A stretch of 64,000 nucleotides of DNA from Gammaproteobacteria bacterium (GCA_963422205.2 CAXMWX010000005.1:772316-836315); one strand, 5' to 3'. Shown: positions 4,968 through 56,600, numbered from the stretch's first letter. Notes: generated by a model from the sequence alone, not told the origin. A program made the numbers and translations.

Positions 4968-5985
4968 AGTTCAGATCGCTGAGTGGTAAGAGCATCTGCC
5001 TCTGGAGCTGTAGGCTCTAGTTTGATTCTGAGTCTGGTCAAACCAATAACTTAATACTAATAATAATAATAATGTATTTCCCGAATTCAGTGCACACATG
5101 GCACTACGGGACGACAGCCATAAAACCAAAGAAATGTCAAATAACATCAAATGAAACAACTAACCATAAGACAGAGTGCATCCAGCAAAAATAATGAAAA
5201 AGATGAGGAAATGACAAAAATCAAAAAAAAAACAAAGATGGATCTACTGACAATTCGATTACTCTAACCAAAGTGTATCTAGTAGAACACACAGTGCATC
5301 CAGCAAAAAATAATAAAGAAGATGAAGAAATGCCAAAAAAATTTAAAAAAGTCAAAGATGGATCTACTGACATTTCCGTAGCTCTAACCACAGTGAATAA
5401 AATAACAAACAAGAAATCAACACGCTCATAAATTAATAAATAAAATCGCTTGATGCCTAACTGCATGCATACCATTAGCTAAACTTATGAACTAGGAGGA
5501 GTAGGCTGCAAATATGCACATATGCAAATTTAACGGAAATTGCACTGGTAAAAAATAGGGATAGGCTGCTAATATGTAGATACGCAAATTTAACGGAAAT
5601 TGCACTGGTAAAAATTAACAAAAAATCAATCAGTCAAAATAAGAAATATCATGACAATGCTAAGGATAAAAAACTAGCAGTATTTAGAAACAAGACGTTT
5701 GAATTGAGAAACAGAAGTACTATTCACAACATTCCATGGCAAATTATTCCAATCCTGTGTACACCTTTGTGAAAAACAATATTTTCGACAATCAACTCTA
5801 ACAAAATTTGTTTTCAATTTGAATAAATGTAGTTTGAATAAATGTGTTTTCAATGTTGAATAAACTTTACAGCCTAATTCTGAATTGGTATTCACAGCTT
5901 CCCTGCTTGTTGGTCATCTTTAAACTGTTAAAGCGACTATGCGGAGAACAAGCCAAAAAGTTTAGTTGTTGTGCTGTTGAAAACA
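4968..5985 (+). mobile_element. SINE family A copy split by a LINE fragment (SINE parts ~4968-5052 and ~5886-5985)
   Basis: Head GAGTGGTAAGAGCATCTGCCTCTGGAGCTGTAG matches the copies at 13452, 31447 and 48796; sequence resumes as TATTCACAGCTTCCCTGCTTG after the insert. Confidence 0.7.
5052..5885 (-). mobile_element. 5'-truncated CR1/L2-type LINE 3' end
   Basis: ORF 5674-5895 has the typical ORF2 C-terminus (RKYCFSQRCTQDWNNLPWNVVNSTSVSQFK); (TAA)n tail at ~5055-5072; internal ~130-bp and 60-bp tandem duplications in the 3' UTR. Confidence 0.7.
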
Positions 5986-10222: not shown

Positions 10223-10952
10223 TATTGTTCACGATTTCATGGGTAACTAACAATAAGATCATTATAAACCCCTCTAATATCATAATGTTACCGAATCAAA
10301 TGCTTTCCTCATGTCGAGGGTCATTTGAGTAAGCATGTCTTGGTTTTGGATGGTGTCATAACATTCAGATACTGTAAAGTATATACAACATGAATCATTG
10401 AATGTTTTTTATGATAACCGAAGTGGTAGGGATTATGATACTATGCTTGTCAAAAAACTGACTGAATAGGCCAATATAGAGAATCATTTTTTCTAAGATT
10501 TTAGATAAGCAAGGTTGAATTGATATCAGTTGATAATCATTGGTTAAATTATTAGTAAACTAACTAGCGATAAAGGTTTTGAATAGTGTGGCATGACTGC
10601 GCTGAAAAATATTGACAATGAATCATTTGAAAAAAAGAGTAGGCCTACTCTTAGTACGAAACAAAAAACTGAACAACTACTCACGTTGCCTAAAACACTG
10701 CATTGCACCTTCAAGGGATGCGAGACTCGAATTGGAAAACCCTGCATTTGTGGCACCGTAGCATAAAGCTCAAATTTGACTTTTGAGTAAAAAATGAATT
10801 TTATTAGTTTCATGTGATTCGGATTTTTTGGTTTATTTTATGGTTAATAATTATTTTTGGTTTCAAGGAAATGACAAAAATTTCAACAATTAACATTTTT
10901 TTCCAGGTGATTAAATTTAGGTATCGTACCAGGCAATCATTTGACCTTAAAA

Positions 10953-13235
10953 ATGAAATTAAAGTTAAGTGTTCCCAAAGATAAAAGTCACGAAGATGTG
11001 GCTACTTGTGTTGCTTGGACTAATGCAGATGGAGTACTGTCAGGAGGAGATGATCACAAAATATTACGATGGAATCTTTTGACTGGAGAGCACACGGTAG
11101 CATGCAAACTGCCTTCAGATGTATACCCTACTCACATGTCACTTTTGCCCAGTCAGTCAAAAAGTGGTAAAAGTCAGGCATCAGATGTGATTGCGGTCAC
11201 TAGCTCTGATGGAAAATATCTCATTCTCTCTGGTGCTGGTCGCATTGAAAAAAGCGTAGAAGCTCACAAAGGAGCTGTTTTAAGTGGAAAATGGAGCTAT
11301 GATGGCAATGCGTTTTTGACAGCTGGTGAAGACGGCCAGATAAAAATATGGTCTCGATCAGGTATGCTTCGTTCCACTCTTGTGCATTCAGTGATTAGCA
11401 TTTATTCGGTTGCATGGAGTCCAGAGTCTGATCAAGTTTTATACACTTTTGGTAAAGAGTTGGTTATCAAGCCACTGCAGCCATCAGGCAAGGTTGTAAG
11501 TTGGAAAGCTCATGATGGAGTTGTATTGACAGTGGACTGGAATTCGGTCACTAATTTGATACTTTCTGGTGGAGAAGATTGCAAATACAAAATATGGGAT
11601 TGCTATGGACGACCTCTTTATTCAAGCACTTCACACGATTATCCAGTTACCTCAATTGCGTGGTCTTTTGACGGCAATGTATTTGCTGTTGGATCTTTCA
11701 ACAGCCTTCGTCTTTGCGATAAATCAGGTTGGTGCCATGGTCTGGAACGAACATCCACTGGAAGTATTATGAATGTAGCTTGGAGTGATGACTGTACTCA
11801 AGTTGCTGCTGCTTGTTTTGATGGTAAAGTTGTTTTTGCTCATTGCATTGAAAAGCACTTACATTGGCATGAATTTGAAGTTGTTCAAGTTAGCAGGAAG
11901 ACTGTCACTGTTCGAAATGTTTTGAACGATGCTTCTGATATAGTGGAAATGAAGGATAGGGTAATTATGGTTTCACTTGATTTCAGCCATTTGATTATTG
12001 TGACCTCTTCTCAGTGCCATGTTTACAGCACCAACAACTTCAACACCCCTTCCATATTTGAACTTCGTTCAGGCGGGGTTTCCTTTATCAAGCAAGCTCA
12101 AAAACACTTTTTGTTAAACACTGGAGCTGGTATTTTTGTGTATTCATACGAAGGACGTCAGTTGTGCAATCCCAAAATCCCTGGCAGTGTAAACACATCA
12201 CTTTTAAGCTATCGATCTGTGTCTTTGAGTAATGATGTTTTAGCAATAAAGGCAGGCCAGGATGAAAGATCAGTTTTGCTTTTTGATGCTGTCACTGGAA
12301 AGTTTGTTGGTGATGGCTCTCCACTTGTTCATAAGCTAGAAATTCAAGACATTCATTTGAGTAAGGTTGGATCAGTGGTTGATCGTTACTTGGCTTTGAT
12401 TGATAAAAATCATGACGTTTACCTTACATCGGTTCAAAAATCTGGTGCTGATTACAATCTCGTTAAACTTGCTTCAATGGTACAATCTTTGGAGTGGAAT
12501 ACATCTGTGAATATGCTTTGTGGTCTGTGTGATTCAAGTGTAATGGTGTGGTTTTACCCTCCTGTTGTTTTTATCGATCAAGCAATCTTGCCATTAACTC
12601 TGTATCAAAAAGAGCACAACGAATTAGGCAAAAACCCAACTCTTTCTTCGTATTATGAAAATACTGTTCGGGTTTCTCGAGAAAACGGATCGTTGGTATA
12701 TGTACCGATAACACCTTATCCAGCTATTTTACATCGCCTGGTAGCGTCAGGCAAATGGAATGAGGCCGTCAGACTGTGCCGTTTTGCAAAGGAGAAAACG
12801 CTTTGGGCTTGTCTCGCTTCCATGTCAGTTAAAGAGAAAGATCTCAACACCGCCGAAGTGGCGTATGCTGCTATTGAAGAAGCTGACAAAATTGAGTGCA
12901 TTGGTGACATCAAGAGTCTTCCTTCTAAAGATGCGAGAGCAGCAGAAATGTCCCTTTTCTGTGGGCACATCACTGAACCTGAAGCTGCGTTTTTGCATGC
13001 TGGAATGATCTACCGAGCTATACAACTGAACATGGACTTATTTCGTTGGGAAAGAGCGCTGGATTTGGCAATAAAGCACAAAACTCACGTCGACACTGTT
13101 CTGTGGTTTAGGCAAGTGCATTTGCAAAGATTGAACCGCAGTGAAACCAATCAAAAATTTAAAAAATTTTCCCACGGAGTTGAATTAAACTGGGAAAATA
13201 TACAAGCAAAGATAGAACAAGACCTCACGGGCTAG
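10953..13235 (+). CDS. IFT80: Intraflagellar transport protein 80 (WD40 repeat IFT-B subunit), 760 aa, single-exon CDS
   Basis: Uninterrupted ORF from ATG 10953 with recognisable IFT80 motifs: GEDGQIKIWSRSGMLRSTL, WKAHDGVVLTVDW, ILSGGEDCKYKIWDCYGRPLY, FAVGSFNSLRLCDKSGW, WERALDLAIKHKTHVDTVL. Confidence 0.96.
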   Translation: MKLKLSVPKDKSHEDVATCVAWTNADGVLSGGDDHKILRWNLLTGEHTVACKLPSDVYPTHMSLLPSQSKSGKSQASDVIAVTSSDGKYLILSGAGRIEKSVEAHKGAVLSGKWSYDGNAFLTAGEDGQIKIWSRSGMLRSTLVHSVISIYSVAWSPESDQVLYTFGKELVIKPLQPSGKVVSWKAHDGVVLTVDWNSVTNLILSGGEDCKYKIWDCYGRPLYSSTSHDYPVTSIAWSFDGNVFAVGSFNSLRLCDKSGWCHGLERTSTGSIMNVAWSDDCTQVAAACFDGKVVFAHCIEKHLHWHEFEVVQVSRKTVTVRNVLNDASDIVEMKDRVIMVSLDFSHLIIVTSSQCHVYSTNNFNTPSIFELRSGGVSFIKQAQKHFLLNTGAGIFVYSYEGRQLCNPKIPGSVNTSLLSYRSVSLSNDVLAIKAGQDERSVLLFDAVTGKFVGDGSPLVHKLEIQDIHLSKVGSVVDRYLALIDKNHDVYLTSVQKSGADYNLVKLASMVQSLEWNTSVNMLCGLCDSSVMVWFYPPVVFIDQAILPLTLYQKEHNELGKNPTLSSYYENTVRVSRENGSLVYVPITPYPAILHRLVASGKWNEAVRLCRFAKEKTLWACLASMSVKEKDLNTAEVAYAAIEEADKIECIGDIKSLPSKDARAAEMSLFCGHITEPEAAFLHAGMIYRAIQLNMDLFRWERALDLAIKHKTHVDTVLWFRQVHLQRLNRSETNQKFKKFSHGVELNWENIQAKIEQDLTG

Positions 13236-32600: not shown

Positions 32601-35600
32601 GTGGAAGTAATTACTTGCGATTTGCTTTGAGACTAACTATATCGTTCGAAAAGAACAAAAACTTACTCTCTATTCTACATCGTTCCGAAGAATTTTCATT
32701 TCCTGTTATCAAATTTTCCTGAAGTAAATACTGACTTAGACAAGCGCTTTCAGCGCAGGGAAGGCAAACTGGTCTTATAAAAGCGGTGTAATTGATAAAA
32801 CCACCCATGCCGGTCGACTCCAGCCTGCCAAAGACTGTCTGAACGTACCGCGTTCCAACTTTGATCTAAAGAGTTAAAAAATGTTGAGGCTGTTTTGAGA
32901 TAATATCAGTGATACAGTAGAAGCTCTTCATGATGAAACCAGTGTGATGCTATTGATTGACGCGTGCAGAGCTGTAACATGCCGACCAGTTTTGGATCAA
33001 ACCGGACTGAAAGTGAAGTTCGATTTAAAACACTTAAATGTTAGATTTTTTATTTCTTCAAATGGGCTTTGAGGTTTTGGTAACCAATTATCGCAGTCAA
33101 AAACAACAAGTTATTTCGAGCTGAAAAAAGGTGGTGGCATGTTTGCCGCACACTTGACCCAAATGAGATTTTCTCAAACTTAGACGGTAATCTGATTCAA
33201 AAAATCAAGGCCGACTTACAACTTTGACAACGTGTTTATGCAAACAGTGCATTATGTAAACAATTTGAATTGATACCAATTTAATGCACATAAAGATTTA
33301 CCAAGGCGATATCGTAGTCAAACTTAAAATTATTGAATTGTGGATGAGCGTGGTACTCGCTGGCTACGTAAGTTTCCACTTGTGGGGCCAACAGTTCACC
33401 AAGGTTAGGTCGTTTATGTAGCCCTGAACAAAATATAACTTTAAAGATTAGGCATAGGCTTGAGCTATTTTAAAATAAGTCATTGGCATTTTTATTCAAA
33501 TTCTCGTCTTGTTTCCTATCAATTACTTAAATTAGCTCTTAAAAAACAGCAAAAACTTCCATTTACAAAGTGAACTAGGCGAATAACCAGGAGCAGAGTC
33601 AATGGTTTCCAAATCTCATCACCCTGAAATATGAAGGCCTATTTTGCAAAAACTCAGAAATAAAACTGTATGGGCAGAACAGACGTTTAGGCAATAGTTT
33701 TCTTTTTATGTAGGCCTACTGTAGTTACAAAATTGACTTTCTGTAAAAGCGTACTATTGAAAAGTTACCGAATGTCAGTAAAATTCGATCAAGCCAGTTT
33801 CGATCTTGATAATCGTTAGCAAACAAGTGAGCAGCCGTCAAAACCCATCGATGATTGATCAAACTGCCTCCGCCGATAAAATTCCGGGTTGCATATGCCT
33901 GAAATGCATTACAGTAACATTGTTCATCACAAAGCACGCCTTCAGATGAATTTTCAGCTTCCATTGTTTCAAAGTAGCTGCCACATTTTAGGATGGTAAA
34001 GCAACCCGAAGGCAGCAGACAGACAACAGCAGCCAAATAATTACCGTACTGATGTTGGTGAGCCTATAAAAGTCGTCTCAGAACCCGTTGGCAGAATTGA
34101 GACCTCGGTTGGGTATCATCACGAAATTCCACAAAAGCATCTATCTCTTACTGCCAGAAAATGAGATAGTTATACCATAGTCCGTGACCGTGGTTATACT
34201 TATGAAATTCTGTTCCACCCAAGACCAATGAGAGGGAGTGCAGGGGGGCAAATAACCCCTGGATCCACAAACGGACATTAAGATTTTTGCGAGGTGACAT
34301 ATCACGCTTGCTTTAACTCTACATTGAAATAAAGCTTTAGCTTTGGGTCCTTGATAAGTTCGGAAAATGTGGGACGTGGGTCCTTGATAGGTTTGGAAAA
34401 TATGGGACTTTGATCAGGAATGCATACAGATTTGGAATGTATTTTGTGTTTAAAATGCAAAATACGTATTTGAAATACAAAATGGGCCTACTGCATGTAT
34501 TTTGTGTTTGTATTTTACATTTATTTTAATGTATTTTGTATTTAAATACTTTTTACAACAAGTATTTGTAATTCGTATTTTAGATACATTTGTTCCACGC
34601 AATCGATAACAAATAACCCGGAACAAAGCTGCCGCCCGAAATAAAAACGCCGTATCTAGAACTAATTTCCCTTTTTTCTAAATTTTAATAGTACTCGAAA
34701 AGCTATATCTTGTAGAGTTTTTGGATTTTTAAAATTTGCTTTGGTTCAAATGTTTTTTGTTTTTCGAAAAATTATTTTCAAAGTATTTTGAAATGTAATT
34801 AAACATTGTTAAAGTATTTGTATTTTGTAGTTACTAGTATTGCCGAAAAGTATTTTGTATTTGTATTCAAATACTTTATCGTCAATCCATTTTGTATTTG
34901 CATTTAAATACATTTGGAGAGTATTTTGCCCAAGTCTGATTGTAGGCCTATACAATGAACCCGGGCGGCGTTTTTTTAACCAAATGGAATTTAATGCACT
35001 AAATGACAAAAACTTAAGGGCTTCGTCTCATGCCCTGTGACTGTGAGTGCACAGTTGCTCTGAGCGCTCGTCTACTAACAAATGCATAACTAGTTTACCG
35101 TGGCTTAAGCACATGTTGTACGAAACAAGTTTTTATCAAATTTGCATGTAAGCACTTCGCCCACGATCTCGATTGTTTTCGTCTTCAGCATCTACTAATA
35201 TTTCCGCAGCTGTTCGTTTGGCTACCTGCTGATTGATGAGTTAATAAAAAATGACGCAAGAGTCACAGTCTATATATGGATATCATTAAAATGCTTAGAC
35301 ATGAAGAAGCCCGTGTGGAAGGTTGGTCATAAGACCTGAAACCGGGCAAAAAAAGCTAATTTCAATAAAATTGTGAAAGAATGTACTTCGTACATTGAAC
35401 GCACAGTACACTCGACTCACACATTGCTATCATTTTGTCATACAACCGGATAAATGATAGGCCTTGAAGACTTACTAAATAAACGCTGTAAACACCAATT
35501 CGACGAGAAGTTTCGCGGTTTGATCGCTCATCAGGTAGACTCAGGTTTTGAGCCCAGGACCTTGTGATTGCGAGGTTTATTTCCCTCACCACTCGGCCAC

Positions 35601-38600
35601 CGGGCTCACTATGTTTTTAGTGAATTTTTAGCCATACATACTCAAGCCCCTGCAACTGCACGCTTAGCATCGAGCAGTTAGCCTAGTTGGCATGTGTCGG
35701 CAATGGCAGGCCTGATTTTACAAGTATTAAAATAAGTGGAATCGATGTAAGCAGTAGCGAATTTAGGGGGGGTTCATTGTATAGGCCTACAATCAGACTT
35801 AGGCAAAGTACTCTCCAAATGTATTTAAATACAAATATGCCCCCCCCCCCCTTTTGACTACGCTTTTTAGTAAAAAAGAACAAAATTATGGTGCCCAGTG
35901 ATTGAAACATGTATGCCACACTCTTTTGATGGTTTCTGTAGCTTATGGCCAGGGGCGGATCCAGGGGGGTAAGATGAGGAGTATGCTTCCTCCACCAGCC
36001 ATTTTCAAAAATGTTTTTGATGTATACAATTTTCCCAGAATTTTCAACCTCTTCGATAGCGATAAGCGTTACGCCTGAAGCACGCATAATCGAAAATGTG
36101 CGAACAAAATGCATCATAATTGGCGAAGCTTTCAGAATTAGGATCAAAAAATTTAAACAAAATTTGCGTGAAAAGTATTCAAAAAGCACTAAAATAGCCA
36201 TTACAGCATTTAAATTTTCAAAAATTTTCCGGGGGAGCATGCCCCCGGACCCCCCTAGAGCTTTCATTGCTTCTCAATCAGCTTCAAATTAGCTCTGCCG
36301 AAAGAAACACACGAAAACACGCTTGAAAAAATTGTAGAAATTATGCCCCCCACCCTTTTTAAAATTTCTCGCTACGCCACTGGATGTAAGTCTGTATATA
36401 TGAAATACAACTGGATAAATCATAGGCCTTGAAGACTTACTAAATAAACGCTGTAAAAAACAATTCTACGACTAGTTTCGCGGTTTGACCACTCATCAAG
36501 TAGACTCAAGAAGACTCAGGTCCTGGGTTCAAAACCTGAGTCTACCTGATAAGCGGTCAAACCACGAAACTAGTCGTAGAATTGTTTTTACAGCGTTTAT
36601 TTAGTAAGTCTTCAAGGCCTATGATTTATCCAGTTGCATTTCATATATATAGACTTACATCGGCTCCACTTATTTCAATATCATTTTGTTGCAAAGGAAG
36701 GAGAAACTCGGCCGGGGCAACACACTGCAGGGCGCAGCAGATAAGAGTGTAAATTGTTTTAGTGGTTACCTCTTGACCTTTTTTTACGCTTTGTCGCATC
36801 ATTCTCAGAAACTCGCCATGAACAGCAGAAATCTTTTCTCAGAATGACAGCAAAGTTTAAACGTTAAAATTCACGTAGACAAATCGCCGCGTCATAAAAC
36901 GAAGCTACTAAACTGAGATGTGCAACGTGAGCGCGCTGCAGTTTGCAACACTTAAGCAGTTACAATCCCACAGCGTGAGAAACAAGACTATGCAAATGAG
37001 AATTGTGAAATAAAGTAAGATTAATCTTGGGACGCGAGTTCGAAGCTGAAACATAGCGCCCCTGAAAACGGAAAATAAAGTGACATTTCAACAAAACCAA
37101 AAGGTAAAAGCGTAACGAATCGCAAACATAAAACATATATAAAAAAAAACCTTCATAGTTTCTATGTACCCAAATTATAAGTGCGTAATAAAGTGTCACG
37201 AATAAGCGTATCAGCGAGTAAACTTGGATAGAAACAAGGTATGTTGTATTTACACACACAATAAAAAAGAATACATACTGTATAAACATGAAATCGGGCG
37301 ATTATTTTTGAAAACAAAAAGCACAAAATGACTTCATTTTCTAAACTGGGGCAATTTTAGAGAGGTCTCCAAGGATGTATTTAATCACTGTTTCACCGGA
37401 GTCTGGATTTCTAGCAAGAACAGCGACTGTGGCCCGCCTCACAATGTTACGCCCTTTACGGACTTGAGGGTGCAAGCAGTGAACCCTACCTAACCGGTAC
37501 GCTCCACGCTTCGACAAGTCTTCGGCATCACCGACAAGCACCAACTGACCGACGCTAAGATTATCACGAAGGGTTCTCCACTTGCCTCGACTTTGAAAAG
37601 CTGGAAGATAGCTTTTCATCCAACAGGACCAAAACTTTTGGGCAAGTGAAGCATTATAAAGAAAGTCCTGTCTGAGATAGCTTTTAAAGAGCAGTGTCCT
37701 TCCTGGCCTACCGCACGGGAAGTCGTCCTGACTTCCCGTCCGGTAGGCCAGGAAGGACACTGCTCTTTAGTTGCTTGCTCTTCACCCTGGCCACGTAAAG
37801 AGTTTGACTGGAATGGTGACGTAGCCACACGAGTGGATATGCGTACCACAAAGGTTAAATTCTTTAAGAATTATTTATCCGAAGGGATGAGTGATCCTGG
37901 CAAGATCATTCGTCCTGGAAGATGAATGTTTCTTACCTGAGGGCGGCTGATGAAGGCTAATAGCCAGAAACAGCGCTGTCTCGCTCTACGGTGCGGTATA
38001 CTGGAGTGCTTTGCACTGTTGGTGATGGAGTGCTGTTATAGCCTCTGACCCAACAAGCGGAAGTCGTCCTGACTTCCCGTCCGGTAGGCCAGGAAGGACA
38101 CTGCTCTTTAGTTGCTTGCTCTTCACCCTGGCCACGTAAAGAGTTTGACTGGAATGGTGACGTAGCCACACGAGTGGATATGCGTACCACAAAGGTTAAA
38201 TTCTTTAAGAATTATTTATCCGAAGGGATGAGTGATCCTGGAAAGAACATTCGTCCTGGAAGATGAATGTTTCTTACCTGAGGGCGGCTGATGAAGGCTA
38301 ATAACCAGAAACAGCGCTGTCTCGCTCTACGGTACGGTATACTGGAGTGCTTTGCACTGTTGGTGATGGAGTGCTGTTATAGCCTCTGACCCAACAAGCG
38401 GAAGTCGTCCTGACTTCCCGTCCGGTAGGCCAGGAAGGACACTGCTCTTTAGTTGCTTGCTCTTCACCCTGGCCACGTAAAGAGTTTGACTGGAATGGTG
38501 ACGTAGCCACACGAGTGGATATGCGTACCACAAAGGTTAAATTCTTTAAGAATTATTTATCCGAAGGGATGAGTGATCCTGGCAAGAACACCGTCCTGGA

Positions 38601-41600
38601 AGATGAATGTTTCTTACCTGAGGGCGGCTGATGAAGGCTATTAGCCAGAAACAGCGCTGTCTCGCTCTACGGTGTGATAGCTTTTATCATGAAATGTACT
38701 AATAGGAGTATTAGGCGCCAAATGCTGGCCTAAAAAACATGAAGGAGTAAGTGGTTTTTATCAGTGGGCTTTTCGCTCAGAGTGGTTAGGGGACGATCGT
38801 TTGCTATTCTCACGGCGTCTGAAACAAACGTTTGAAGCTCGATTGTAGAGGGCTTGCGTCGTACTTCCCCATGATGTAACGCATTTTTGATTAGTTTTAC
38901 CATACTTTTCCAGCTGCCGGCCTGGGAAGATGCGTATTCGCACCCAGTTGGTGTTACGCCGGCGCAGGGAATTATGAAATTCAGTAGAATCAATAATTAA
39001 AGGCAGCTGCTTTTCAGCAGCACAAAACGTTTTGCCATTATCTGAAAAGAAAGTGTCCACCGGCCCTTTTAAATTGGTGAATCTAGAAAAGGCTAAAACA
39101 AAACCGTTCAAATCCATGCTTGTCTATTTCAACATGTACACGAGTGAACAAACAAGTGAATAGGATGCCCCAAATTTTACATAAATTCCTGTTTTGTTTG
39201 CAAAGAAACGGACCAAAATAATCAGTGCCGCAAAACTTAAATGATTTATTGACAGCAGTGACCCGAAAAGACGAAAGGTTTGACATCAGCGTCGTCGAAC
39301 AGGTTTGACTTTGTCAAGTGCACATTTACCGCGTTCTGTTAAGCCGCTTGACGCTGGAGATGCCAGAGTCGATAACATTACCTTTGAACCAAATAATTTG
39401 AAAAAGATCATGTTGTGCTCTTGGAAGAGACACCTGAAAGAAACACTTGCTCAAATCAGCAATGCAAGCGTATCTTCCTAACCGAAAACGGATGAGAATC
39501 TTTATCAAATTATTTAAAAGGTTAGCACAACCTAAAACAGCTTGATTCAAAGACATACCGCTGTGCAAGGCAGCGCCATCATACACAACTCAAGCCTTTT
39601 CTTGCTTAGTGCCGGAGAAAGGAAGGTACCATTTGGGGCCACTAGAAGAGTTTTTTTCCACCGGAACAATCCATTCCTCGTCAATAAGCTCGCCAAAAGT
39701 ATCAGTTAACCACCTTTTTTAAATCAAAATTTTTTAAGGCTGAGCGGCGCATCGACACAATGCGGTCTAAAACATTCCGATAATTATTAGGTAGTTGTTC
39801 CACGATCGCCATATTGAGAGGCACTGGAATCCCATAACGATTATCAACAACTTTAATTTCACTTTTAACAATCTCTTTAGCCCTCTCATCGTTTCCTGAG
39901 GGCTGTAATGCCTCGTTATCTAGGCTCGATTCCCGCAAAGACTGTTTCAAATCGGCAACCTCTCTTTTAAGTTTAACGCAGCAATCCTCAATACAATCAC
40001 AATTAGCATTTAAGTTCACTTTTAAGCTGGTATATGCGCTAGTGGCGGAAGGAACACGTCCAACCATTGCCGGCAAGAGGACCAAGTTTCGTCAAAACAT
40101 AATTAGGTTTATTCGGGTCCAAATTCTCATTCTCATGCAAAACAGTAAGCAGACCTTTGTCCGTCAGACCGATCAACACGTCGATGCATTTGCGCTCAGA
40201 AATAGTCGAGATTTCAACATCATTAAAGTTGTCTAATCCTGCCACATCAACTGAGTGAGGAAGACTGCTTTCATCATCAGTAAAGTTAGAAACAACCAAA
40301 GCATTTTTAACAGAAAATTGCCTCCAGTGTAAAGAGATTCTAAACTGAAGTCTGTCCGACCCTCAGTGGTCGCGGTTTGGCCAGTCAAGATTTTAATGAT
40401 ATCAGTGGGGTCGCTCACAGTTTCAAGATGAAGTTCATTTTTTAGCCCTTCAGATATGAGGGTGGGTTGTGACGCGGTGTCGTGCTGTGCATAAGCTGGG
40501 GTTGATCTGCCCATTACTGGGTTAATCGCCCTCACAACACTAGTACGCAAAAGAACAACACTTTTAGTAGTGTCACTATGGTCTGAGATTTAAAAATACT
40601 GACCTTTTGTATGTTATCGCTAGTGTGTTTTCCATCTTCTCCATTAGGAGAAGGCGCACCAGATGCTGAACCCTGTCTTCCACCACAATCGCCCCGGGCA
40701 CCTGCAGAAGCAGGAAGCTCGAACCAATCGTGCAGTACCGCGTAGTGTTTTCTACTGCAGCTAGGTCCACACTGACGACATTTAGATGGTTGTTTACATT
40801 TACGAGCAATATGTCCCCGTAACAAACAATTTAAACAGCGGTTAGAATCCACAACAGTTTTACGTCTAATGTGTGGAGTAAATGAATTAAACTTATTGCA
40901 GTCAGCGTAAAAATGTCAACTTTTATTGTTATCACGAACAAAACAAAGTGGAGGAAGCCTCAGATTCGAATAGTTTTGGTTATTCGAGTTCTCCATAGAT
41001 CGTTCCGGTCCAGAGTTTATGTGGCTAGATCGTAGCCCCTCTTCAGACAAAACCACCTGGCGAACACAAACTTGATTATTTTTTGCGTCCCCTAGATCGA
41101 GCGTCCAGCGACTTACCTTAGTCATCGCTCCCAAAAAAGGTCTGAGCATAATCGGATGTTGACACACTCAGCTCGTGCGTCACGAAACTTTTCAAAGCGT
41201 CAAAAACTGGGCGATTTTTGTCGGACCCGATTTTTGTCAAATAGTCCAAATAATGTCTCTTTAAAAAGTTGAGCAATCGATTAACCGAATCTAGCGTAAG
41301 CTGGCCAGACAGTTTCTCAAGTTCGTTATAAGCATAGGCGTACACCTCAAGTAAGTTTAACTCCTCATCAAAGGATTTTAAAGAAGCAGTTTTAAAGGAG
41401 ATCGAAGGGTCGTGACGGATTTCTCTTACTTTAGGCTCTAAAGTAAGTCCGGCAGGAACACCGTATCTCTCCTTCAAACGTGCCAACGCTTTCTCAAATC
41501 ACTGAGACGTCGTCATAGCCTGCATGGGAGCGAAAAACAAGTTAACTATTTCCCTTGGCTCACCCACACAGGACGCTCCTAGATCTTTGAAGCGTCGCTC

Positions 41601-50600: not shown

Positions 50601-53600
50601 AATGATCCTTAGAGTAATGCCGTCGGTAGTGTTCAATCACTTCCATCAGAGTTACCCATAGCGGTAAGGTCGAAGGAGAGAAACAGACTAAGTAACAATG
50701 TAATGCTGTAGCTACTCAATCTCTTGACAGCCACTGTTTCGACTTCAATGCTGTAGCTAAATGGAAAGTTGTAACAACAATATTCATCTTACTGCATTGG
50801 ACGGCGCATAGGATAAAAAGGTCCGTGTTCGAGTTTTAGGCAGAGGGACTCGTTCGAAAAGTACGCTACAGTCTCCCCCACAAGCTGACCGTCACCGGAA
50901 ACCCACCTAAGCAGTCGCTAAGAGTTTGGGGAGGCAAATGGGTGCAGCGCACAGAAAATGTACTGGAGTTGGACCAAACTGCCGGGATCATAGCTATCGG
51001 GAACTGGAACGTTTCGTCACTGACAGGAAAAGAGCAAGAGCTTGTTTGCGAAGCCCAGCGGTATCGCCTTGATATTAAGGGAAATTCATCAACAAAGCGC
51101 CGGGGTTGTGGAACTGACGAGTTGAACGGTGGGTGAAAAATTTTCTACTCCAGTGTTGATGCAGCAATATTTGCTCAAGCTGGTGTTGGCTAACTTGTGA
51201 GTCCCAAGATGGCTGAGTATGTCACTGACTGGGTACCACTCGGAAAAAGGGTTTGTCTTCTCAAGCTAAGGCTGCAGAAGCGATTTCTATGTCTCTTGTA
51301 GGTGTATGCACCTAACATAGAATCACAGAGGGAAGCCTTTCTGGAGGAAGTTGAGGTTACACTGGGAAAAGCGACTTGGAAAAAGAAGGAAGGTATTTAT
51401 TGCAGTTCTGTGCCACCAACGGATTGCACATAATGAACATATTTTTTCAGCACAAAAGAATTCATAAGTACACCTGGTACAGAGACTTCTTGGGACCTAG
51501 CTCCCTGATTGATTTTTGTATCGTTTCGGTGGACTTGTTTTCCACCGTGTCTGATGTTCGTGTTAAAAGAGAGGCGGAGATGCCAACTGATCACCACCTA
51601 GTTGTCTGCACTTGAAAGCTTTGAAACCCGTGAGAAAACGAAAGACTTTTTGACCAAGAAAAACTTAGCGAATCCAATGGGAATTTTTGGCTGACAAAAA
51701 GGTACGAACTGTATTTGCATACAACATTGCATCTAAGTTCCAAGAACTTGCGGCCTCTACTCAAGACATTGAAGCTGAGTGGTGTTTGTTTCAAACAGCA
51801 GTCATTACGTCCGCTACTAACTGTTGTGGAAGTAAGCGTGTTGGAGGGACGAAAAGTAGAGAGAAAAGAATTCCTTGGTGGAACCAAGAAGTTAAATAAG
51901 CTATTCGTGCAACAGAAGTGGCCTATAAGGCCTGGTTTGCAATTAAGTCATCAGTTGATCTTCGTTCGCAGTACTCTGAAGTACGTAAGGCGGCAGCCAC
52001 AAAAGTTAAACTGTCTAAGGAAAGGGCCTAAAAGGAATTTAGAGAAAGGCTAGACAACGATTTCAAAATGACAAACAAAGCATTCTGGCAGACCATTCAC
52101 AGTTTGCGTGGAAAAAGATCTCAAGCCGATTTCTACATCGAAGGTTTATGTGGCACCACTTTAAAAAATGAGGATGCTATTTTGAATCGGGGGAGAGAAT
52201 GCTTTAGTGATCTTTTAAACCCAGTTGATGCTACATCGATTCAAATTCACGAGGAACTGGTTGGGGAAGATATTCAGACAACCCAAGCAGATGTGAGTGC
52301 AGTTATCAAATCATTGAAAACTGGAAAAGCACCTGAAATGTTAAAAGCAATGAACTTGTGTGGTGTTCGTTGGCTGACTCGTGTTTGTAAGGTGGCTTGT
52401 ACGACTGGGAAGCACCAAAGCAATGGCAAACTAGTGTGACAATACCTATCCACAAGAAAGGAGACAAGAGAAAATGTACCAATTGTAGGATCATATCTCT
52501 CATCAATGTCCCGGGTAAGGTCTATGCTAAATGCCTTGAAAAGAAATGCCGAGAAATAGTCGAGCCTAAACTAACGAATGTTCAGTGTGGCTTTCGTCTT
52601 AACCGAAGCACAATGGACCAGATCTTTGCTTTGCAGCAAATCTCTGAGAAGTCGTGGGAATATGCGAACGAGGTCAATGCATGTTTTGTTGATCTTGAAA
52701 AAGCATATCATCGCATTCCTAGAAACAAGCTTTGGGCGGTGCTGTTACAGTATGGCATTGGTGGCCAGTTAGTAACTGCTATTAAGTCGCTGTACATGCA
52801 TTCCGAAGTCTGTGTTCGTGTTAACAGCGCAAGGGCGATACCTTTCTGAGTAAGTGTGGGACTACGGCAAGGCTGCTCACTTTCACCTATTCTGCTTCTT
52901 ATTTATATGGATAAAATAGTTACGAAAAATGGGTGTTATCGCGGAGTTAAGATCGGTGTTGCGCTGTACAACGTCTGTTATTTGCAGATGTTCTTGTGCT
53001 ACTCGTCTCTACCCAAAATGGTCTCCTGCAAGCTCTCGACAGGTTTTTGGATGCATGCTCTGTGGCCGATGAAAATCAGCGCAACAAAAACAGTAACCAT
53101 ATGTGCCTGTCCAGACAACCAAAGCAGTGCTCTCTCCAAATTGGTGGAGTACCACTAAAACAGTCTGAGAAATTTAAGTACCTCGGCGTCTCATTCACAA
53201 GTGATGGCAGACAACACAGCGAATTGGATATCCGCATCGGAAAAGCAAGTGCAGTAATGCGCCAGCTCCACCGATCTGTAGTACTGAAACGGGAGCTTTG
53301 TACCAGGGCAAAGCTTCCCATGTTCAGATCAGTCTATATTCCTATTCTGACTTATGGCCAATTGGCCTTGAGTGTTGGATGATGAATGAGAAAGTGAGAT
53401 CTCGAGCTCAAGCAGCCGCCATGGGATTCTTGCGAAGAATTAGCGGTTTGACTTTGTTGGACAAGGTTAAAAGTGCAGATATTCGTGAACCTCTAAACAT
53501 CGAAAAGCTGCTTTTCCGATTAGAAAGATCGCAACTGCGTTAATATGGACATGTGACCCGAATGTCCCACGAAAGAACAGCCAAAAAAATGCTCTGTTCA

Positions 53601-56600
53601 ACACCGATTGGTCGAAGGCCTAGAGGCCATCCCAGAACTCGATGGCGAGATTACGTAGATCTTAGTTGGTCTCGCCTTGGCATCCCAGCAGAGCATCTAT
53701 CCTTTGTAGGCTTGTAGCAGGGGATCGAGATGCTTGGAGGCTTCAACTCGAGCTGCTGCCCCCGCGACCTCCCAAGAATAAGTGGGTCTACAAAATGAAT
53801 GAACGTACAGTACTGGTAGCATATTCTAGTTTATTGATTGATTGATTATTTATTTATCCATGAACTAACAATTAGACCAACAAATACAGATAACAATGGA
53901 AAAATAAAACAAAATAAAATAGAAACAAAGCAAAAAAGAACACTAACAAAGACCACCAAATATAAATAACAATGCACGGGAGACTGCGAAGGGACCTTAG
54001 GGTCATGGAGTCAAGCAGCCATCCTTACTAAAGCGGATAAGCTAAAATTTAAAGCGTGGCATAATTTGCATACAATCCATAAATAAACATTGTATATAGA
54101 CAGTTTATTCACCTTACCCTTCAGGAACTCCATCATCAAAGTTAATTCTTCACAAGAAAATGAAGTTTAAGTTTTTGATTAAACCTGCGCACAGAACTTG
54201 ATTTTATGTCATCGGGAATATCATTCCAAATCTTGACGCCTTGATATTTAAGTGAGCGTTGCAACTTCGAGGTGCGATAGAGTGGAATCTACTAGTTACA
54301 ACAAGTTGCTTGTAATCTGGTTTTTACTGGGTGATGTTCGTTTAGTTTGACGAAAAAATTGTTGAATGGAGTAGGGAGCATATCTTTGAGGTGAGAATAG
54401 ACAAAAAGACCCAATTCTGATTTCACAAGGTCATGGAGTTGCAAATGTTTAATGACTTATAAATGCTACTTAGCGCATAATGATGAGCATGTTTACCACA
54501 TATTAGTTTTATTGCTTTGTCTTGGAGTTTGCTGATCGGGGCCGTGTAAGTTTGGTACGTGGAAAACCATATTGTAACGACGTATAACAAGTGAGAGTGG
54601 AAGAGTGCAAAATACAGATGAAGAAGGGATTTCTTAGGGAGATAATTTTTAACTTTCTGCAAAATGCCCAATGACCGAGAGAGCTTCGTATAGAGAAGTT
54701 TGATGTGTGTTTTGAAGTTAAGCTCGTCATCGATATAAAGCCTAAATATTTTGCTGATTTGAAGATGGTGATAGGTGATCCATCATAAAATATGTTAATT
54801 TCGGGAGAAGTTGATGGCAAGTTGAATTTAGGTGGTATGATTAACAAATTTGACTTTTCGGAGTTGAAAAGTTGGAGTTGAGTGATCATGATTAATCAGT
54901 TTTGAAAGACTGTCAATTGTATCAGCACTGTGAACTAGACACGTGTCATCCGCAAACAGACGAGGTTTCACCAAAGTGCAATTGTCCAGATCATTGCTGC
55001 AAAGTATAAAAAGAAGAGGACCAAGAGTTGACTCTTGAGGGACTCCCCATTTGATAGGGACGAGTTTAGAGGATTGTTCATCAATCACAATAAACTGCTT
55101 TCTTTGCGAAAGATAAGATTTTAAAAGATCATTTGCAGTACCTCTAATCCCATAATGCTCCAATTTATTAATTAATATATCATGGTCAACAGTATCAAAT
55201 GCTTTCTTGATGTCTAAAACACTAACACCAGTGAATTTTTTATCGTTGATATTATCATTGGCCATAGTAATAACATCAGTAACTGCATGCTTTGTAAAAT
55301 GCCCAGCTCGAAAGCCATATTGAAACGGTGAGATTATGGAGTGCTTGCGGATAAAAGTGTCCAGTCGCTGATACAACAATTTTTCAAAAATCTTGCAGAA
55401 ACTAAAAAGAAGGGAAATAGAACGATGGTTAGTAGCTACACGCTTATTGCCAGATTTAAAAACAAGAACCACTTTGGCAAGTTTTAAAATGTCGGAAAAT
55501 ATTCCGAAAGCAAATGAGTAGTTCACGAATTCTGAAAGAGGTTCAGAAACTATAGCGGCAGCAACCTTAATAAAGTAAGGCGAAATATTGTCGGGACCAC
55601 AGGCTTTTTTATTGACAAGGGCGTTGTTAATTAATACGAAAACTTCAGTTGGAACTGTAGGTTGCAGAAAGATTGAGTCAACCACTCTATCGTGAAGGAA
55701 TTCGTTAAAACTTGAAGAATCGGGCAATATATTCAAATTATCAACGACTGTAGTAGCTACTGTACTGAAATAATCACCAAAGTGTTTTGCAATTAATTTG
55801 GGATCATGGACAACAGTGCCATCGCTTGCTTCAAGCACTTGAATCGTATGTTTCGCAGTTTTCTTGGGCAGCAAGCTTTTAATGATGTCCCATGTTCTGC
55901 GAATATTACTCTTGCAATTATGAAGTTCGCTCCCAAAATAGCTTTTTTTTTGCTGCGTTTAGCTTCTTCAGCTTTGACGTCAAGTTTTGTTGCGCAATTT
56001 TACAACCAAGATAAAACCCAATGAAGCTATGGAGCAATATATTGTGCACTTCTCATTCAAAGTCAGAGGGGCAAGTACCGAATTGCCCCCTCCACAGACG
56101 CCTACTTGTGTGTGCATATCAATTTGGCACTTTTAGCTTTGCATCAAACTTTGTTGTGCATATTATAACCAGGGCTGGAAATCGATACCCAAAAAAGTAA
56201 AGAAATAATCGAGAATAATCGATTTTGATGGTAGTTTAAGAAAGCAAAGAATAAAGAATATTGTAATCGATATCCGATATTACATTGAACATTTAGCGAT
56301 GTACTCCACACATTTTTTGTGATGTCCTCACATTCATGCGGTAACTTAAAGACAAACGACGGACAAAGTATATGACATTATTCATGCGAAGCAACTTTGC
56401 TTTAAGCATTTTTTGGCACAAAAAAATTATCAGATAAAACAAGGTAATGACATACCGACGATTATTTTAAATTTACCAAAATGAGATAAACTAACCTGGA
56501 CATAAAGAATCGAATATGGAATATCGAATTGAGCCGAAAAAAAAGTAAAGACAAGGCATATTCGATACTCATTCAAAAAACTAAAAGCTCCAGTGCATTG

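What the first reader, a model, noticed from the sequence alone, without database searches (positions are those of the whole stretch)
35428..36689. Second, unrelated retrozyme-like element whose 326-nt unit fuses a tRNA-like Pol III head directly to a hammerhead
Seen: after removing a 631-bp MITE and its TSD, the minus strand reads hammerhead, tail, spacer, tRNA-like head (A box TGGCCGAGTGG 35599-35589; B box GG(C/T)TCAAAACC 35554-35544), hammerhead, partial tail. The two cut sites are 326 nt apart. A third, inverted copy starts at ~36518 with an intact B box. An 11-bp TSD TATCATTTTGT bounds the whole insert. The consensus TCTAC-CTGATGA-GCGG TCAAA CCGC-GAAACTAGTC-GTAGA is a perfect hammerhead with a palindromic stem III, but each copy carries different lesions. 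Known: hammerhead-bearing SINE-like repeats exist (schistosome Sm-alpha). Inference: a SINE/retrozyme hybrid with an internal promoter. Caveat: a T run just after the ribozyme could stop Pol III.
Basis: partly seen in the sequence, partly recalled or inferred. Interest (0 to 1): 0.82.

Follow-up and report, generated by a model that had tools for sequence, protein, structure and literature searches.

The report
Decayed tRNA-headed hammerhead retroelement insertion
This is a dead, later-interrupted copy of a very abundant animal "jumping" RNA element whose 326-base unit joins a tRNA-style promoter module directly to a self-cutting hammerhead ribozyme, a layout so far described mainly in blood flukes.

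Summary
There are three decayed copies of one 40-nt type-I hammerhead. The cut-to-cut unit is 326 nt once a 631-bp MITE and its 8-bp duplication are removed. An exact A box and a near-exact B box lie 45 nt apart and end 4 nt before the ribozyme. An inverted copy keeps the B box, and an exact 11-bp target duplication flanks the insert.

The window is animal-like host DNA (37% GC) joined to a bacterial MAG contig. Contigs from three public runs (one study) show every part of the unit at 10^2-10^4 times the flank depth. Their majority letters repair the three ribozyme lesions and the one B-box lesion that the table lists.

The B box-ribozyme junction is family-wide. The A-box segment has only about 1-3% of that depth, though it occurs in dozens of other contigs.

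The layout (inverted truncated copy, 1.4 tandem units, duplication) matches Penelope-like-element insertions and the neighbouring retrozyme. It is best read as a non-LTR retrozyme/SINE hybrid of the schistosome Sm-alpha type in another host.

Pol III use is untested. A T5 run 11 nt after the cut is the family majority and would stop Pol III. Neither Rfam nor ARAGORN recognises a tRNA or a hammerhead. I class it as a new member of a known kind, of moderate interest.

The parts
35428..35438 (.). left copy of the 11-bp target-site duplication TATCATTTTGT
   Evidence: exact repeat D6; printed; chance rate
35439..35504 (-). partial tail of copy A: the first 66 nt after the cut site, where the insert ends. 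It holds a mutated T run at 35494-35490.
   Evidence: sequence; 90% identical to copy B's tail over 104 nt (D1); majority letter 35493 C>A restores T5
35500..35539 (-). hammerhead copy A. The core CUGAUGA and GAAA are intact. Lesions lie in stem II (35524), loop III and stem I. The cut falls between 35505 and 35504.
   Evidence: Rfam Hammerhead_3 14.1 bits; majority letter 35524 T>C (338,756 of 344,213 depth in X1)
35541..35606 (-). tRNA-like head: acceptor-like start, A box 35599-35589, B box 35554-35544. It ends 4 nt before the ribozyme's stem I.
   Evidence: one pair in the window, 0 of 300 simulations; exact 14-nt match to tRNA-Ser D arms; no Rfam or ARAGORN tRNA call
35607..35743 (-). spacer and distal tail of the 326-nt unit (continuation of copy B's tail after the MITE)
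   Evidence: I5 links 35725-35751 to copy C's tail; summed depth 137k-217k against a flank of 48 in X1
35744..36390 (.). nested 631-bp hAT-like MITE (35752-36382) with its 8-bp duplication CTTACATC on both sides
   Evidence: 12 further HSPs to MITE copies or fragments in the host part of C7; depth up to 3 million
36383..36469 (-). proximal tail of copy B (87 nt from the cut to the MITE), with a T6 run
36465..36504 (-). hammerhead copy B (UUGAUGA lesion; stem II G-U). The cut falls between 36470 and 36469.
   Evidence: majority letter 36491 A>G; the dimer cofold gives a double hammerhead
36505..36517 (-). head-to-head junction between the inverted copy C and the 5'-truncated copy B
   Evidence: I7 and I4; alignment
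36518..36678 (+). inverted, 5'-truncated copy C. It holds B box 36526-36536, a hammerhead at 36541-36580 (CUGAUAA and CCAC lesions), a T5 run, and a tail of 103 nt after the cut.
   Evidence: majority letter 36551 A>G restores G8
36679..36689 (.). right copy of the 11-bp target-site duplication

Best explanation
This is a fossil insertion of a highly repeated, non-coding hammerhead retroelement of an animal-like host. The host DNA has been joined to a bacterial MAG contig.

Unit structure (shown): reading from the cut site, the 326-nt unit is tail, spacer, a degenerate tRNA-type A-box/B-box module, then a minimal dimer-type type-I hammerhead. The hammerhead has a 5-bp stem I, a 4-bp stem II and a 1-bp helix III capped by the palindromic loop CUAG. 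The promoter module therefore sits in the last ~100 nt of the cut-to-cut RNA, as in schistosome Sm-alpha.

This insertion (shown): the copy went in as an inverted 5'-truncated unit plus about 1.4 direct units, with an 11-bp target duplication. It then accumulated inactivating substitutions in all three ribozymes and was split by a hAT-like MITE.

How the family works (inferred):
1. [quoted passage not shown]
2. These RNAs are probably circularised by a host tRNA ligase.
3. A Penelope-like element's RT/endonuclease copies them back into DNA. This gives the inverted/tandem layout.
4. The A and B boxes would let TFIIIC/Pol III start about 7 nt before the A box.
5. The family-majority T5 run 11 nt after the cut would end most such transcripts at about 115 nt. 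Full-unit RNA would therefore need read-through or outside transcription.
For: Anatomy.

Host nature of the DNA:
- GC falls from 0.56 to 0.39 at C7 ~708 kb.
- The low-GC part holds APE-type LINE RTs, an IFT80 ORF, tRNA-SINEs and MITEs.

Family abundance:
- In three runs of one study the flanks have summed depth 48 / 3 / 6-15.
- The bins of copy A's unit (35453-35707) have 115k-344k / 1.0k-8.2k / 21k-119k. Those of copies B and C (36371-36676) have 123k-476k / 2.5k-11.7k / 59k-223k.

Majority letters in those contigs:
- They repair stem II in A (35524) and B (36491), G8 in C (36551), the B box (35552) and the T5 run (35493).
- Other copies carry the A-box head. In X1, 32-38 contigs have non-window letters at 35580-35587, listed 56-74 letters from a contig end.
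- One contig of another copy has letters between 36508 and 36640 that hold a still more canonical B box next to the ribozyme (table 5c).

Hammerhead class:
- Among 72 distinct environmental instances of the same core plus loop III, 55 have stem I of at least 4 of 5 pairs, against 3 in a slid control.
- 59 have stem II 4 of 4 pairs. The 50 instances that have both stems carry 43 different stem II sequences.
- Copy B cofolds into a double hammerhead with a 6-bp intermolecular helix III.

Unit fold: z = -3.0 against dinucleotide shuffles.

Insertion layout:
- It matches the description of Penelope-like-element insertions (PMC8557442, passages).
- It recurs in the neighbouring retrozyme at 37674-38686.

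Precedent: Sm-alpha is a tRNA-Gln-like SINE with a Pol III promoter followed by a hammerhead, 335 bp long (passages).
Against: - Nothing here shows any transcript.
- Rfam gives no tRNA hit. It gives no hammerhead hit above 14.1 bits. The intact neighbouring retrozyme reaches only 19.2 bits, so this is weak evidence.
- ARAGORN sees no tRNA on the element's strand.
- Similarity to tRNAs and to the host's tRNA-SINE heads is confined to 14-15 nt around the A box.
- Per-site depth falls to about 3.2k (35580-35587) and 2.6k (35611-35620) in X1. It is 415k at the B box and 80k-255k in the spacer. Most family depth therefore has a different or strongly diverged A-box segment.
- The T5 run after the ribozyme is the majority state.
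- No Penelope-like RT or GIY-YIG domain lies in the 128 kb of host DNA.
- Tandem and palindromic SINE structures are also reported for LINE-dependent bivalve SINEs (PMC11481361, passages). The layout is therefore not diagnostic.
- No second copy lies in the 2.99-Mb file, in 60 related genomes, or in either contig collection with the specific pattern.
- All read evidence comes from one study. That study may be the source of the window.
Confidence: 0.65

Rival explanations
1. It is an ordinary LINE-mobilised tRNA-derived SINE that happens to have captured a hammerhead. The inversion arose by twin priming and the tandem by template jumping.
For: The 11-bp duplication is in the LINE range. APE-type LINEs lie in the same window. 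The host has other tRNA-SINE families with the same A box. LINE-dependent bivalve SINEs can form tandem and palindromic structures.
Against: There is no A-rich or microsatellite 3' end at either outer boundary. The tail shows no blastn similarity to any LINE copy in the 128 kb. An internal T5 run is unusual for a Pol III-driven SINE. The hammerhead type and the layout match Penelope-like elements and the neighbouring retrozyme.
Confidence: 0.2
2. The head is not a working promoter. A promoter-less retrozyme family picked up the A-box half from the host's tRNA-Ser-like SINE by template switching, in a minor subfamily. Transcription is by read-through, as proposed for other animal retrozymes.
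For: The A-box segment has about 1-3% of the depth of the B box and ribozyme. An 18-nt string identical to the head's A-box region occurs as a SINE-head fragment at C7:743217. The review PMC7761336 states that metazoan retrozymes seem to lack promoters (passage). A T5 run follows the ribozyme.
Against: The B box is family-wide, and its lesion in copy A is corrected by the majority letter. A diverged copy keeps a canonical B box at the same place (table 5c). Loose-end letters of other copies at 35623 still read an acceptor-like/A-box start (table 7). The A-B spacing is exactly tRNA-like.
Confidence: 0.3
3. It is a chance resemblance: neither a ribozyme nor a promoter, only repeated AT-rich DNA.
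For: No curated RNA model reaches its threshold.
Against: Three copies share the 40-nt block, and the listed majority letters repair three of its lesions. The motif class shows compensatory stems in 50 of 72 independent environmental instances. The A+B pair appeared in 0 of 300 simulations.
Confidence: 0.02

Closest known systems
Sm-alpha / Sj-alpha SINE-like hammerhead retroposons of Schistosoma
   Same: A tRNA-derived Pol III promoter module lies directly upstream of a type-I hammerhead. The unit is about 330 bp (335 against 326). Copy number is high. The promoter ends up at the 3' end of the cleaved monomer, so tandem copies are needed (passages in PMC6765202, PMC2770079 and PMC8490949).
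   Different: The host is a different animal of undetermined phylum. The head's A-box half resembles a tRNA-Ser D arm, whereas Sm-alpha is called tRNA-Gln-like. The hammerhead here is the minimal dimer type with a CUAG loop III. A T5 run follows the cut. Sequence homology to Sm-alpha could not be tested. The primary paper (Ferbeyre 1998) is not held.
Metazoan non-LTR retrozymes (Cervera and de la Pena 2020)
   Same: Both have a type-I hammerhead with a 1-bp helix III and a palindromic tetraloop, units of 150-450 bp in tandem, GC under 50%, duplications longer than 4 bp, no LTR/PBS/PPT, and a structured unit (passages).
   Different: Those elements are described as lacking promoters. The passages returned hold no SINE or polymerase III mention, and tRNA appears only for processing and ligases. 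This unit carries A and B boxes. Expression as circular RNA could not be tested here.
Penelope-like elements and their pseudo-LTR hammerheads
   Same: Both show minimal dimer-type hammerheads. Insertions consist of a partial tandem plus an adjacent inverted 5'-truncated copy, with an extension at one end. Here the two outer tails end 66 and 103 nt after the cut.
   Different: This element has no ORF. No Penelope-like RT or GIY-YIG lies in the 128 kb of host DNA on hand. The partnership is inferred from layout only.
tRNA-derived SINEs of the same host DNA (window 48804, 4969-5040; C7:715942, 765667, 743180)
   Same: They share an identical A box TGGCCGAGTGG and a similar A-to-B distance.
   Different: One member of that family (window 4969-5040) is called tRNA by Rfam at 31.6 bits, and the family has no hammerhead. 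Only 15 nt align with this head.

Membership tests
Hammerhead ribozyme, type I, dimer-type (short helix III with palindromic loop) | Core C3-U-G-A-N-G-A9 and G12-A-A14, the A15.1-U16.1 pair, and H17 at the cut | tested here: met
   The three-copy majority meets it, and the listed read-majority letters restore stem II and G8. Individually, copy A has an intact core, B has C3>U and C has G8>A.
Hammerhead ribozyme, type I, dimer-type (short helix III with palindromic loop) | Stems I and II able to pair; stem I open (type I) | tested here: met
   Stem I is UCUAC/GUAGA with 5 bp in B and C and 4 of 5 in A. Stem II has 4 bp in the majority. The same class shows compensatory stems in 50 of 72 environmental instances.
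Hammerhead ribozyme, type I, dimer-type (short helix III with palindromic loop) | Match to a curated covariance model at its gathering score | tested here: not met
   The best hit is Hammerhead_3 at 14.1 bits against 48.5, and copy C has none. The intact neighbouring retrozyme also fails, at 19.2 against 52, so the models are insensitive to this class.
Hammerhead ribozyme, type I, dimer-type (short helix III with palindromic loop) | Self-cleavage | not testable with these tools
   The only evidence is a predicted double-hammerhead dimer for copy B.
Metazoan non-LTR retrozyme | Tandem units of 150-450 bp, each with a type-I hammerhead; no LTR/PBS/PPT; GC under 50%; duplication longer than 4 bp | tested here: met
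   The unit is 326 nt, with 1.4 direct units plus an inverted partial unit. GC is 0.43 and the duplication is 11 bp. The criteria come from PMC7229834.
Metazoan non-LTR retrozyme | Expressed as small circular RNA | not testable with these tools
   No RNA holder was listed.
Sm-alpha-type SINE-like hammerhead element | tRNA-type A and B boxes upstream of the hammerhead within the repeat unit | tested here: met
   The A box matches the recalled consensus TRGCNNAGTGG at 11 of 11 positions. The B box matches the pattern used (GGYTCRANNCC). The read majority restores the strict GGTTC form. The boxes are 45 nt apart and end 4 nt before stem I. The B box recurs in copy C.
Sm-alpha-type SINE-like hammerhead element | Head present in the family at large, not only in this copy | tested here: inconclusive
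   The B box has the same depth as the ribozyme. The A-box segment is present in 32-38 other contigs in X1 but at about 1-3% of that depth.
Sm-alpha-type SINE-like hammerhead element | Pol III transcription; sequence homology to Sm-alpha | not testable with these tools
   No RNA data and no Sm-alpha sequence were on hand. The primary paper is not held.
Canonical tRNA-derived, LINE-dependent SINE | Head recognisable as a tRNA (cloverleaf) | tested here: not met
   Rfam gives no tRNA hit at E up to 10 in a 146-nt search. ARAGORN gives none on the element's strand down to the 70% threshold. Only a 14-15-nt D-arm match was found.
Canonical tRNA-derived, LINE-dependent SINE | LINE-derived 3' tail or A-rich/microsatellite end; no internal Pol III terminator | tested here: not met
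   There is no A-rich end, no tail similarity to LINEs in the 128 kb (a small sample), and a T5/T6 run 11-12 nt after the cut.
Penelope-like-element-dependent non-autonomous element | Insertion as a partial tandem plus an adjacent inverted 5'-truncated copy, with unequal end extension | tested here: met
   Searches show the layout, and one search gives the criterion. The same layout occurs in the neighbouring retrozyme.
Penelope-like-element-dependent non-autonomous element | An autonomous partner in the same genome sharing the hammerhead or tail | tested here: inconclusive
   The 128 kb holds four RVT_1 matches; the ORFs examined are LINE-like and the relatives of the 376-aa one are APE-type LINEs. 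No GIY-YIG lies in the host part. The rest of the host genome is not on hand.

The most novel reading that the evidence does not exclude
The family carries both a working Pol III promoter and, 11 nt past the cut site, a conserved Pol III terminator. Its main product would then be a ~115-nt tRNA-like/hammerhead RNA, not the 326-nt unit. The ribozyme can act only as a dimer, through the palindromic loop III. This abundant short RNA would therefore supply the second half-ribozyme in trans. It would cut solitary or read-through copies of the family, working as a Pol III-made helper ribozyme for a retrozyme, and it would have arisen independently of the schistosome elements.
Probability: 0.12. Interest if true: 0.75.

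Novelty: new member of a known kind. Interest (0 to 1): 0.42.

Why it matters
Reviews state that animal retrozymes seem to have no promoter of their own and depend on read-through transcription (PMC7761336). The schistosome Sm-alpha elements are the one described case where a tRNA-type Pol III promoter is fused to the hammerhead.

A second, very abundant family with the same layout now appears in another host, with a different tRNA-like head and a dimer-type ribozyme. It would suggest that coupling a Pol III promoter to a hammerhead is a recurrent solution. It would also give a concrete system for asking which polymerase feeds retrozyme circles and which reverse transcriptase moves them.

The copy in this window is dead, so the value lies in the family and not in this locus. 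The finding also flags 128 kb of host DNA inside a bacterial genome record rated 0.12% contaminated.

Tried and rejected
- Rfam at gathering threshold over the whole window gave only a tRNA at 4969-5040. Evalue scans of 35300-36800, 35485-35630 and 36530-36600 gave no tRNA hit. They gave one weak Hammerhead_3 hit, and the B/C palindrome hit plant hairpin-miRNA models below threshold.
- ARAGORN found nothing in the window. At the most relaxed setting it gave only an opposite-strand call with an intron, which I treat as spurious.
There was no second copy of the unit.
- Collection scans with the family-specific degenerate hammerhead pattern found 0 stretches in genome contigs and 0 in metagenome contigs.
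- A looser pattern found 90 and 4 stretches, none related to this family. Of the 50 well-formed instances, 0 had an A or B box upstream.
- A search of 60 related bacterial genomes gave one 38-nt match inside what I read as a bacterial coding region (RNase G-like by eye, untested). I rejected it as chance.
- Sequencing runs: no RNA holder was listed. All three runs laid were contigs from one study, so starts, ends, strand and expression could not be read.
- The host phylum was not determined. Protein search of a LINE RT gave unnamed relatives. Atlas look-ups gave only 'Eukaryota', with arthropod or chordate clusters commonest.
- My own hammerhead descriptor scan of the 128 kb was too crude (it missed copies A and C), so I dropped it.
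- Earlier-findings look-ups by place, sequence and words returned nothing on this element.
- Ferbeyre 1998 and Lunse 2017 are not held. I know them only through citing passages.
- Supplementary figures of PMC7229834 and PMC4209133 list hammerhead families by species and could show a similar element. They were closed.
- Searches for a tRNA- or Pol III-headed retrozyme outside schistosomes found none in the held library.

Full report
WHERE THE WINDOW LIES

The window is G000:C7:772316-836315. Contig C7 has 50-58% GC up to about 708 kb. There GC drops within 500 bp to 34-41% and stays low for the last 128 kb.

The low-GC part holds features typical of animal DNA:
- four RVT_1 matches, the ORFs examined being LINE-like;
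- an intronless 774-aa IFT80 homologue;
- tRNA-derived SINEs;
- many copies of one MITE.

So the finding sits in animal-like host DNA joined to a bacterial MAG contig. The join is either a misassembly or contamination. I did not determine the host phylum.

THE OBSERVATION

On the minus strand the insert reads as follows:
- duplication, 36689-36679;
- the reverse complement of copy C (on the plus strand 36518-36678: B box, hammerhead, 103-nt tail);
- a 13-nt head-to-head junction;
- copy B's hammerhead (36504..36465) and 87 nt of tail;
- a 631-bp MITE with an 8-bp duplication CTTACATC;
- the remaining tail and spacer (35743..35607);
- the tRNA-like head (35606..35541);
- hammerhead copy A (35539..35500);
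- 66 nt of tail in all after the cut (35504..35439);
- duplication, 35438-35428.

With the MITE and one duplication copy removed, the two cut sites are 87 + 239 = 326 nt apart.

The outer 11-mers are identical. In this window exact 11-mers 1000-1500 nt apart occur at 1.07e-5 per position pair. That is about 1e-3 even with ten positions of slack on each side.

The three ribozyme copies each differ from their own majority at different places:
- A: stem II, loop III, stem I.
- B: C3>U.
- C: G8>A and stem II.

The core pattern CTGATGA-N6-30-GAAAC occurs 5 times in the window against 0.18 expected, and 0 of 100 shuffles reached 5.

The A box (35599-35589) and B box (35554-35544) are 45 nt apart. 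They are the only such pair in the window, and 0 of 300 Markov simulations gave one.

IS IT A HAMMERHEAD?

Curated models do not say so. The best Rfam match is Hammerhead_3 at 14.1 bits against a gathering score of 48.5. Copy C gets none.

The plainly intact hammerhead of the neighbouring tandem retrozyme reaches only 19.2 against 52. Rfam is therefore a poor judge of this minimal class.

I tested the class directly by scanning public contigs for the same core plus loop III with a free stem II. This gave 90 metagenome stretches and 4 genome stretches. Among 72 distinct instances with enough flank:
- 55 have at least 4 of 5 stem I pairs, against 3 when the 3' strand is slid by 9 nt;
- 59 have all 4 stem II pairs;
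- 50 have both, with 43 different stem II sequences.

That is the compensatory pattern of a real ribozyme.

Copy B cofolds with itself into the classical double hammerhead. It has two stem II hairpins, a 6-bp intermolecular helix III through ACUAGU, and intermolecular stems I. This fits the description of metazoan type-I motifs with a 1-bp helix III and a palindromic tetraloop that act as dimers (PMC7229834 and PMC4209133, passages).

IS IT A FAMILY, AND DOES THE FAMILY HAVE THE HEAD?

No second copy lies in the 2.99-Mb file, in 60 related bacterial genomes, or in two collections scanned with the specific pattern.

Three public runs of one study hold the locus. That study may be the window's own source. 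Laid at 80% likeness, their contigs give these summed depths in X1 / X2 / X3:
- unique flanks: 48 / 3 / 6-15;
- ribozyme and proximal tail (35453-35554): 251k-344k / 7.6k-8.2k / 115k-119k;
- bin 35555-35605 (A-box part of the head): 115k / 1.8k / 32k;
- spacer (35606-35707): 137k-217k / 1.0k-2.7k / 21k-42k;
- copies B and C (36371-36676): 123k-476k / 2.5k-11.7k / 59k-223k.

These sums are not copy numbers. They do show that every part of the unit is highly repeated.

The majority letters at the listed places repair this locus's lesions (40 of 142 rows were shown):
- 35524 restores stem II of A.
- 36491 restores stem II of B.
- 36551 restores G8 of C.
- 35552 restores the B box to GGTTC.
- 35493 restores the T5 run.

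The B box has the same depth as the ribozyme (415k at 35552 against 344k at 35524 in X1).

The A-box segment does not:
- all-depth is about 3.2k-3.5k at 35580-35587 (32-38 contigs);
- it is 2.6k at 35611-35620 (14 contigs);
- it is 111k at 35571 and 80k-255k at 35629-35671.

No high-depth deletion joint across it is among the 15 of 451 joints shown. So the bulk of the family probably has a diverged segment of about 50 nt there, not a gap.

Several observations indicate that other copies do have a head:
- The contigs with non-window letters at 35580-35587 are other copies. The table places those letters 56-74 nt from a contig end, which I read as the nearer end.
- Four X2 contigs that leave the alignment at 35623 continue with letters that still read an acceptor-like start and the first A-box letters (table 7).
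- One contig has, between 36508 and 36640, letters whose complement is a still more canonical B box next to the ribozyme (table 5c).

In sum, the B box-ribozyme fusion is family-wide. The A-box half is shared by at least a subfamily.

HOW tRNA-LIKE IS THE HEAD?

Rfam gives no tRNA hit even in a 146-nt search at E up to 10. ARAGORN gives none on the element's strand.

Local alignment finds only the D-arm/A-box region:
- 15 nt match the host's own tRNA-SINE heads, reached by 1-5 of 1000 shuffles.
- An exact 14-nt match falls at positions 5-19 of two bacterial tRNA-Ser genes, reached by 0 of 300 shuffles.

The 3' acceptor strand is absent. The T-arm-like stem runs straight into stem I of the ribozyme.

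The head is therefore a promoter-shaped relic of a tRNA-derived sequence, not a tRNA-like fold.

INSERTION MECHANISM

The layout has three features:
- an inverted 5'-truncated copy next to a 5'-truncated direct copy;
- more than one unit length of direct sequence;
- outer ends that stop at different places in the tail (66 and 103 nt after the cut), plus a duplication.

This is how insertions of Penelope-like elements are described: partial tandems, an adjacent inverted 5'-truncated copy, and a 30-40-bp extension at one end (PMC8557442, passages). Such elements carry minimal dimer-type hammerheads in their pseudo-LTRs (PMC4209133). A 2026 preprint argues that animal retrozymes are their non-autonomous derivatives (abstract and passages).

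The neighbouring retrozyme at 37674-38686 shows the same signature:
- 341-nt units, about 2.8 copies, the first two 99% alike;
- a 51-nt inverted arm at its 5' end;
- a 14-nt flanking repeat with one mismatch.

Against this reading:
- No Penelope-like RT or GIY-YIG domain lies in the 128 kb on hand.
- Tandem and palindromic arrangements are also reported for LINE-dependent bivalve SINEs (PMC11481361).

I therefore hold the Penelope-like partner as the more likely but unproven mover.

HOW IT MOST LIKELY WORKS

Shown:
- the unit order: cut, tail, spacer, A box, B box, ribozyme, cut;
- the dimer-capable ribozyme;
- a unit that folds more stably than shuffles (z = -3.0 linear, -2.9 circular);
- high repetition in the host.

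Inferred:
- Multimeric transcripts are cut by paired ribozymes into 326-nt RNAs.
- These are circularised by a host tRNA ligase, as shown for other animal retrozymes.
- They are then reverse-transcribed into new sites.

As in Sm-alpha, the promoter lies at the 3' end of the cleaved monomer. A lone monomer insertion could therefore not drive its own body (PMC6765202).

The unsolved point is the T5 run 11 nt after the cut. It is the family majority. A Pol III start at the head would mostly end after about 115 nt. Three readings remain open: read-through is enough, outside promoters make the long RNA, or the short RNA is itself the product (see the novel case).

This locus itself is dead. All three ribozymes are hit. 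Copies differ by 3-14%. At least 14 places listed for 35440-35751 differ from the family majority. A MITE has split the unit.

COMPARISON AND NOVELTY

The closest known system is Sm-alpha/Sj-alpha of schistosomes. It is a tRNA-derived (Gln-like) SINE-like repeat of 335 bp with a Pol III promoter followed by a type-I hammerhead (passages).

The element here has the same architecture and nearly the same size. It differs in a Ser-like A-box region and a minimal dimer-type ribozyme. I could not test homology.

For animal retrozymes in general:
- The held review says they seem to have no promoters.
- The passages returned from the main paper hold no SINE or polymerase III mention; tRNA appears only for processing and ligases.
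- Six literature searches found no tRNA- or Pol III-headed retrozyme outside schistosomes. Supplements were closed.
- None of 50 well-formed environmental hammerheads of the same class has an A or B box within 120 nt upstream.

I therefore file it as a new member of a known kind, the Sm-alpha type, in another host. It is also an unusual variant among retrozymes.

VERDICT

Interest is moderate (0.42). The locus is a fossil and the architecture has a 1998 precedent. The family behind it is abundant, and it could show which polymerase feeds animal retrozymes.

Noticed in passing
G000:C7 ~708,000 (64 kb upstream of the window start) to the contig end; the whole window: Contig C7 switches within 500 bp from about 56% GC bacterial sequence to 34-41% GC animal-like DNA for its last 128 kb. 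The genome is rated 97.97% complete and 0.12% contaminated, so a marker-based check misses this host DNA.
   Followed up: partly
window 37674-38686 (+): A second hammerhead retroelement: 341-nt units in about 2.8 copies, the first two 99% identical, with intact CTGATGA...GAAAC cores at 37947, 38288 and 38628. It has a 51-nt inverted arm at its 5' end and a 14-nt flanking repeat. It shows no blastn similarity to the element studied. Rfam HH9 gives only 19.2 bits.
   Followed up: partly
window 62043-62071 (-): A further CTGATGA-N-GAAAC match with a longer stem II. It was not examined.
   Followed up: no
window 35752-36382; other copies at C7:718169-822450: A 631-bp MITE with CAGTGGCG... terminal inverted repeats and an 8-bp duplication, which I read as hAT-like. 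There are 12 further HSPs in the 128 kb, and it has the highest summed read depth of the region (up to about 3 million in X1).
   Followed up: partly
window 48804 (+), 4969-5040 (+); C7:715942, 765667, 743180, 743217: A tRNA-derived SINE family with A box TGGCCGAGTGG and a conserved body. The single Rfam tRNA hit of the window (31.6 bits) is a member of it, not a tRNA gene (ARAGORN calls it only at a relaxed threshold). A 5' fragment at C7:743217 shares 18 nt with the head studied here.
   Followed up: partly
window 10911-13232 (+): An uninterrupted 774-aa ORF for an IFT80 homologue (Atlas score 1.00 to IFT80 clusters). It is intronless, so it is possibly a processed retrocopy or a gene of an intron-poor host.
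   Followed up: no
window 52391-53382 (+) and 54831-55958 (-): LINE-like reverse-transcriptase ORFs. The first is broken into pieces; the second is open over 376 aa, and its relatives carry Exo_endo_phos plus RVT_1 (APE-type LINEs).
   Followed up: partly
window 36383-36661: Copies B and C form a long near-perfect hairpin (arms of 77 nt at 97% and 53 nt at 92%). It hits several hairpin-miRNA models below threshold (MIR2630, 93.7 bits against 144). If transcribed, it could be a source of small RNAs.
   Followed up: no
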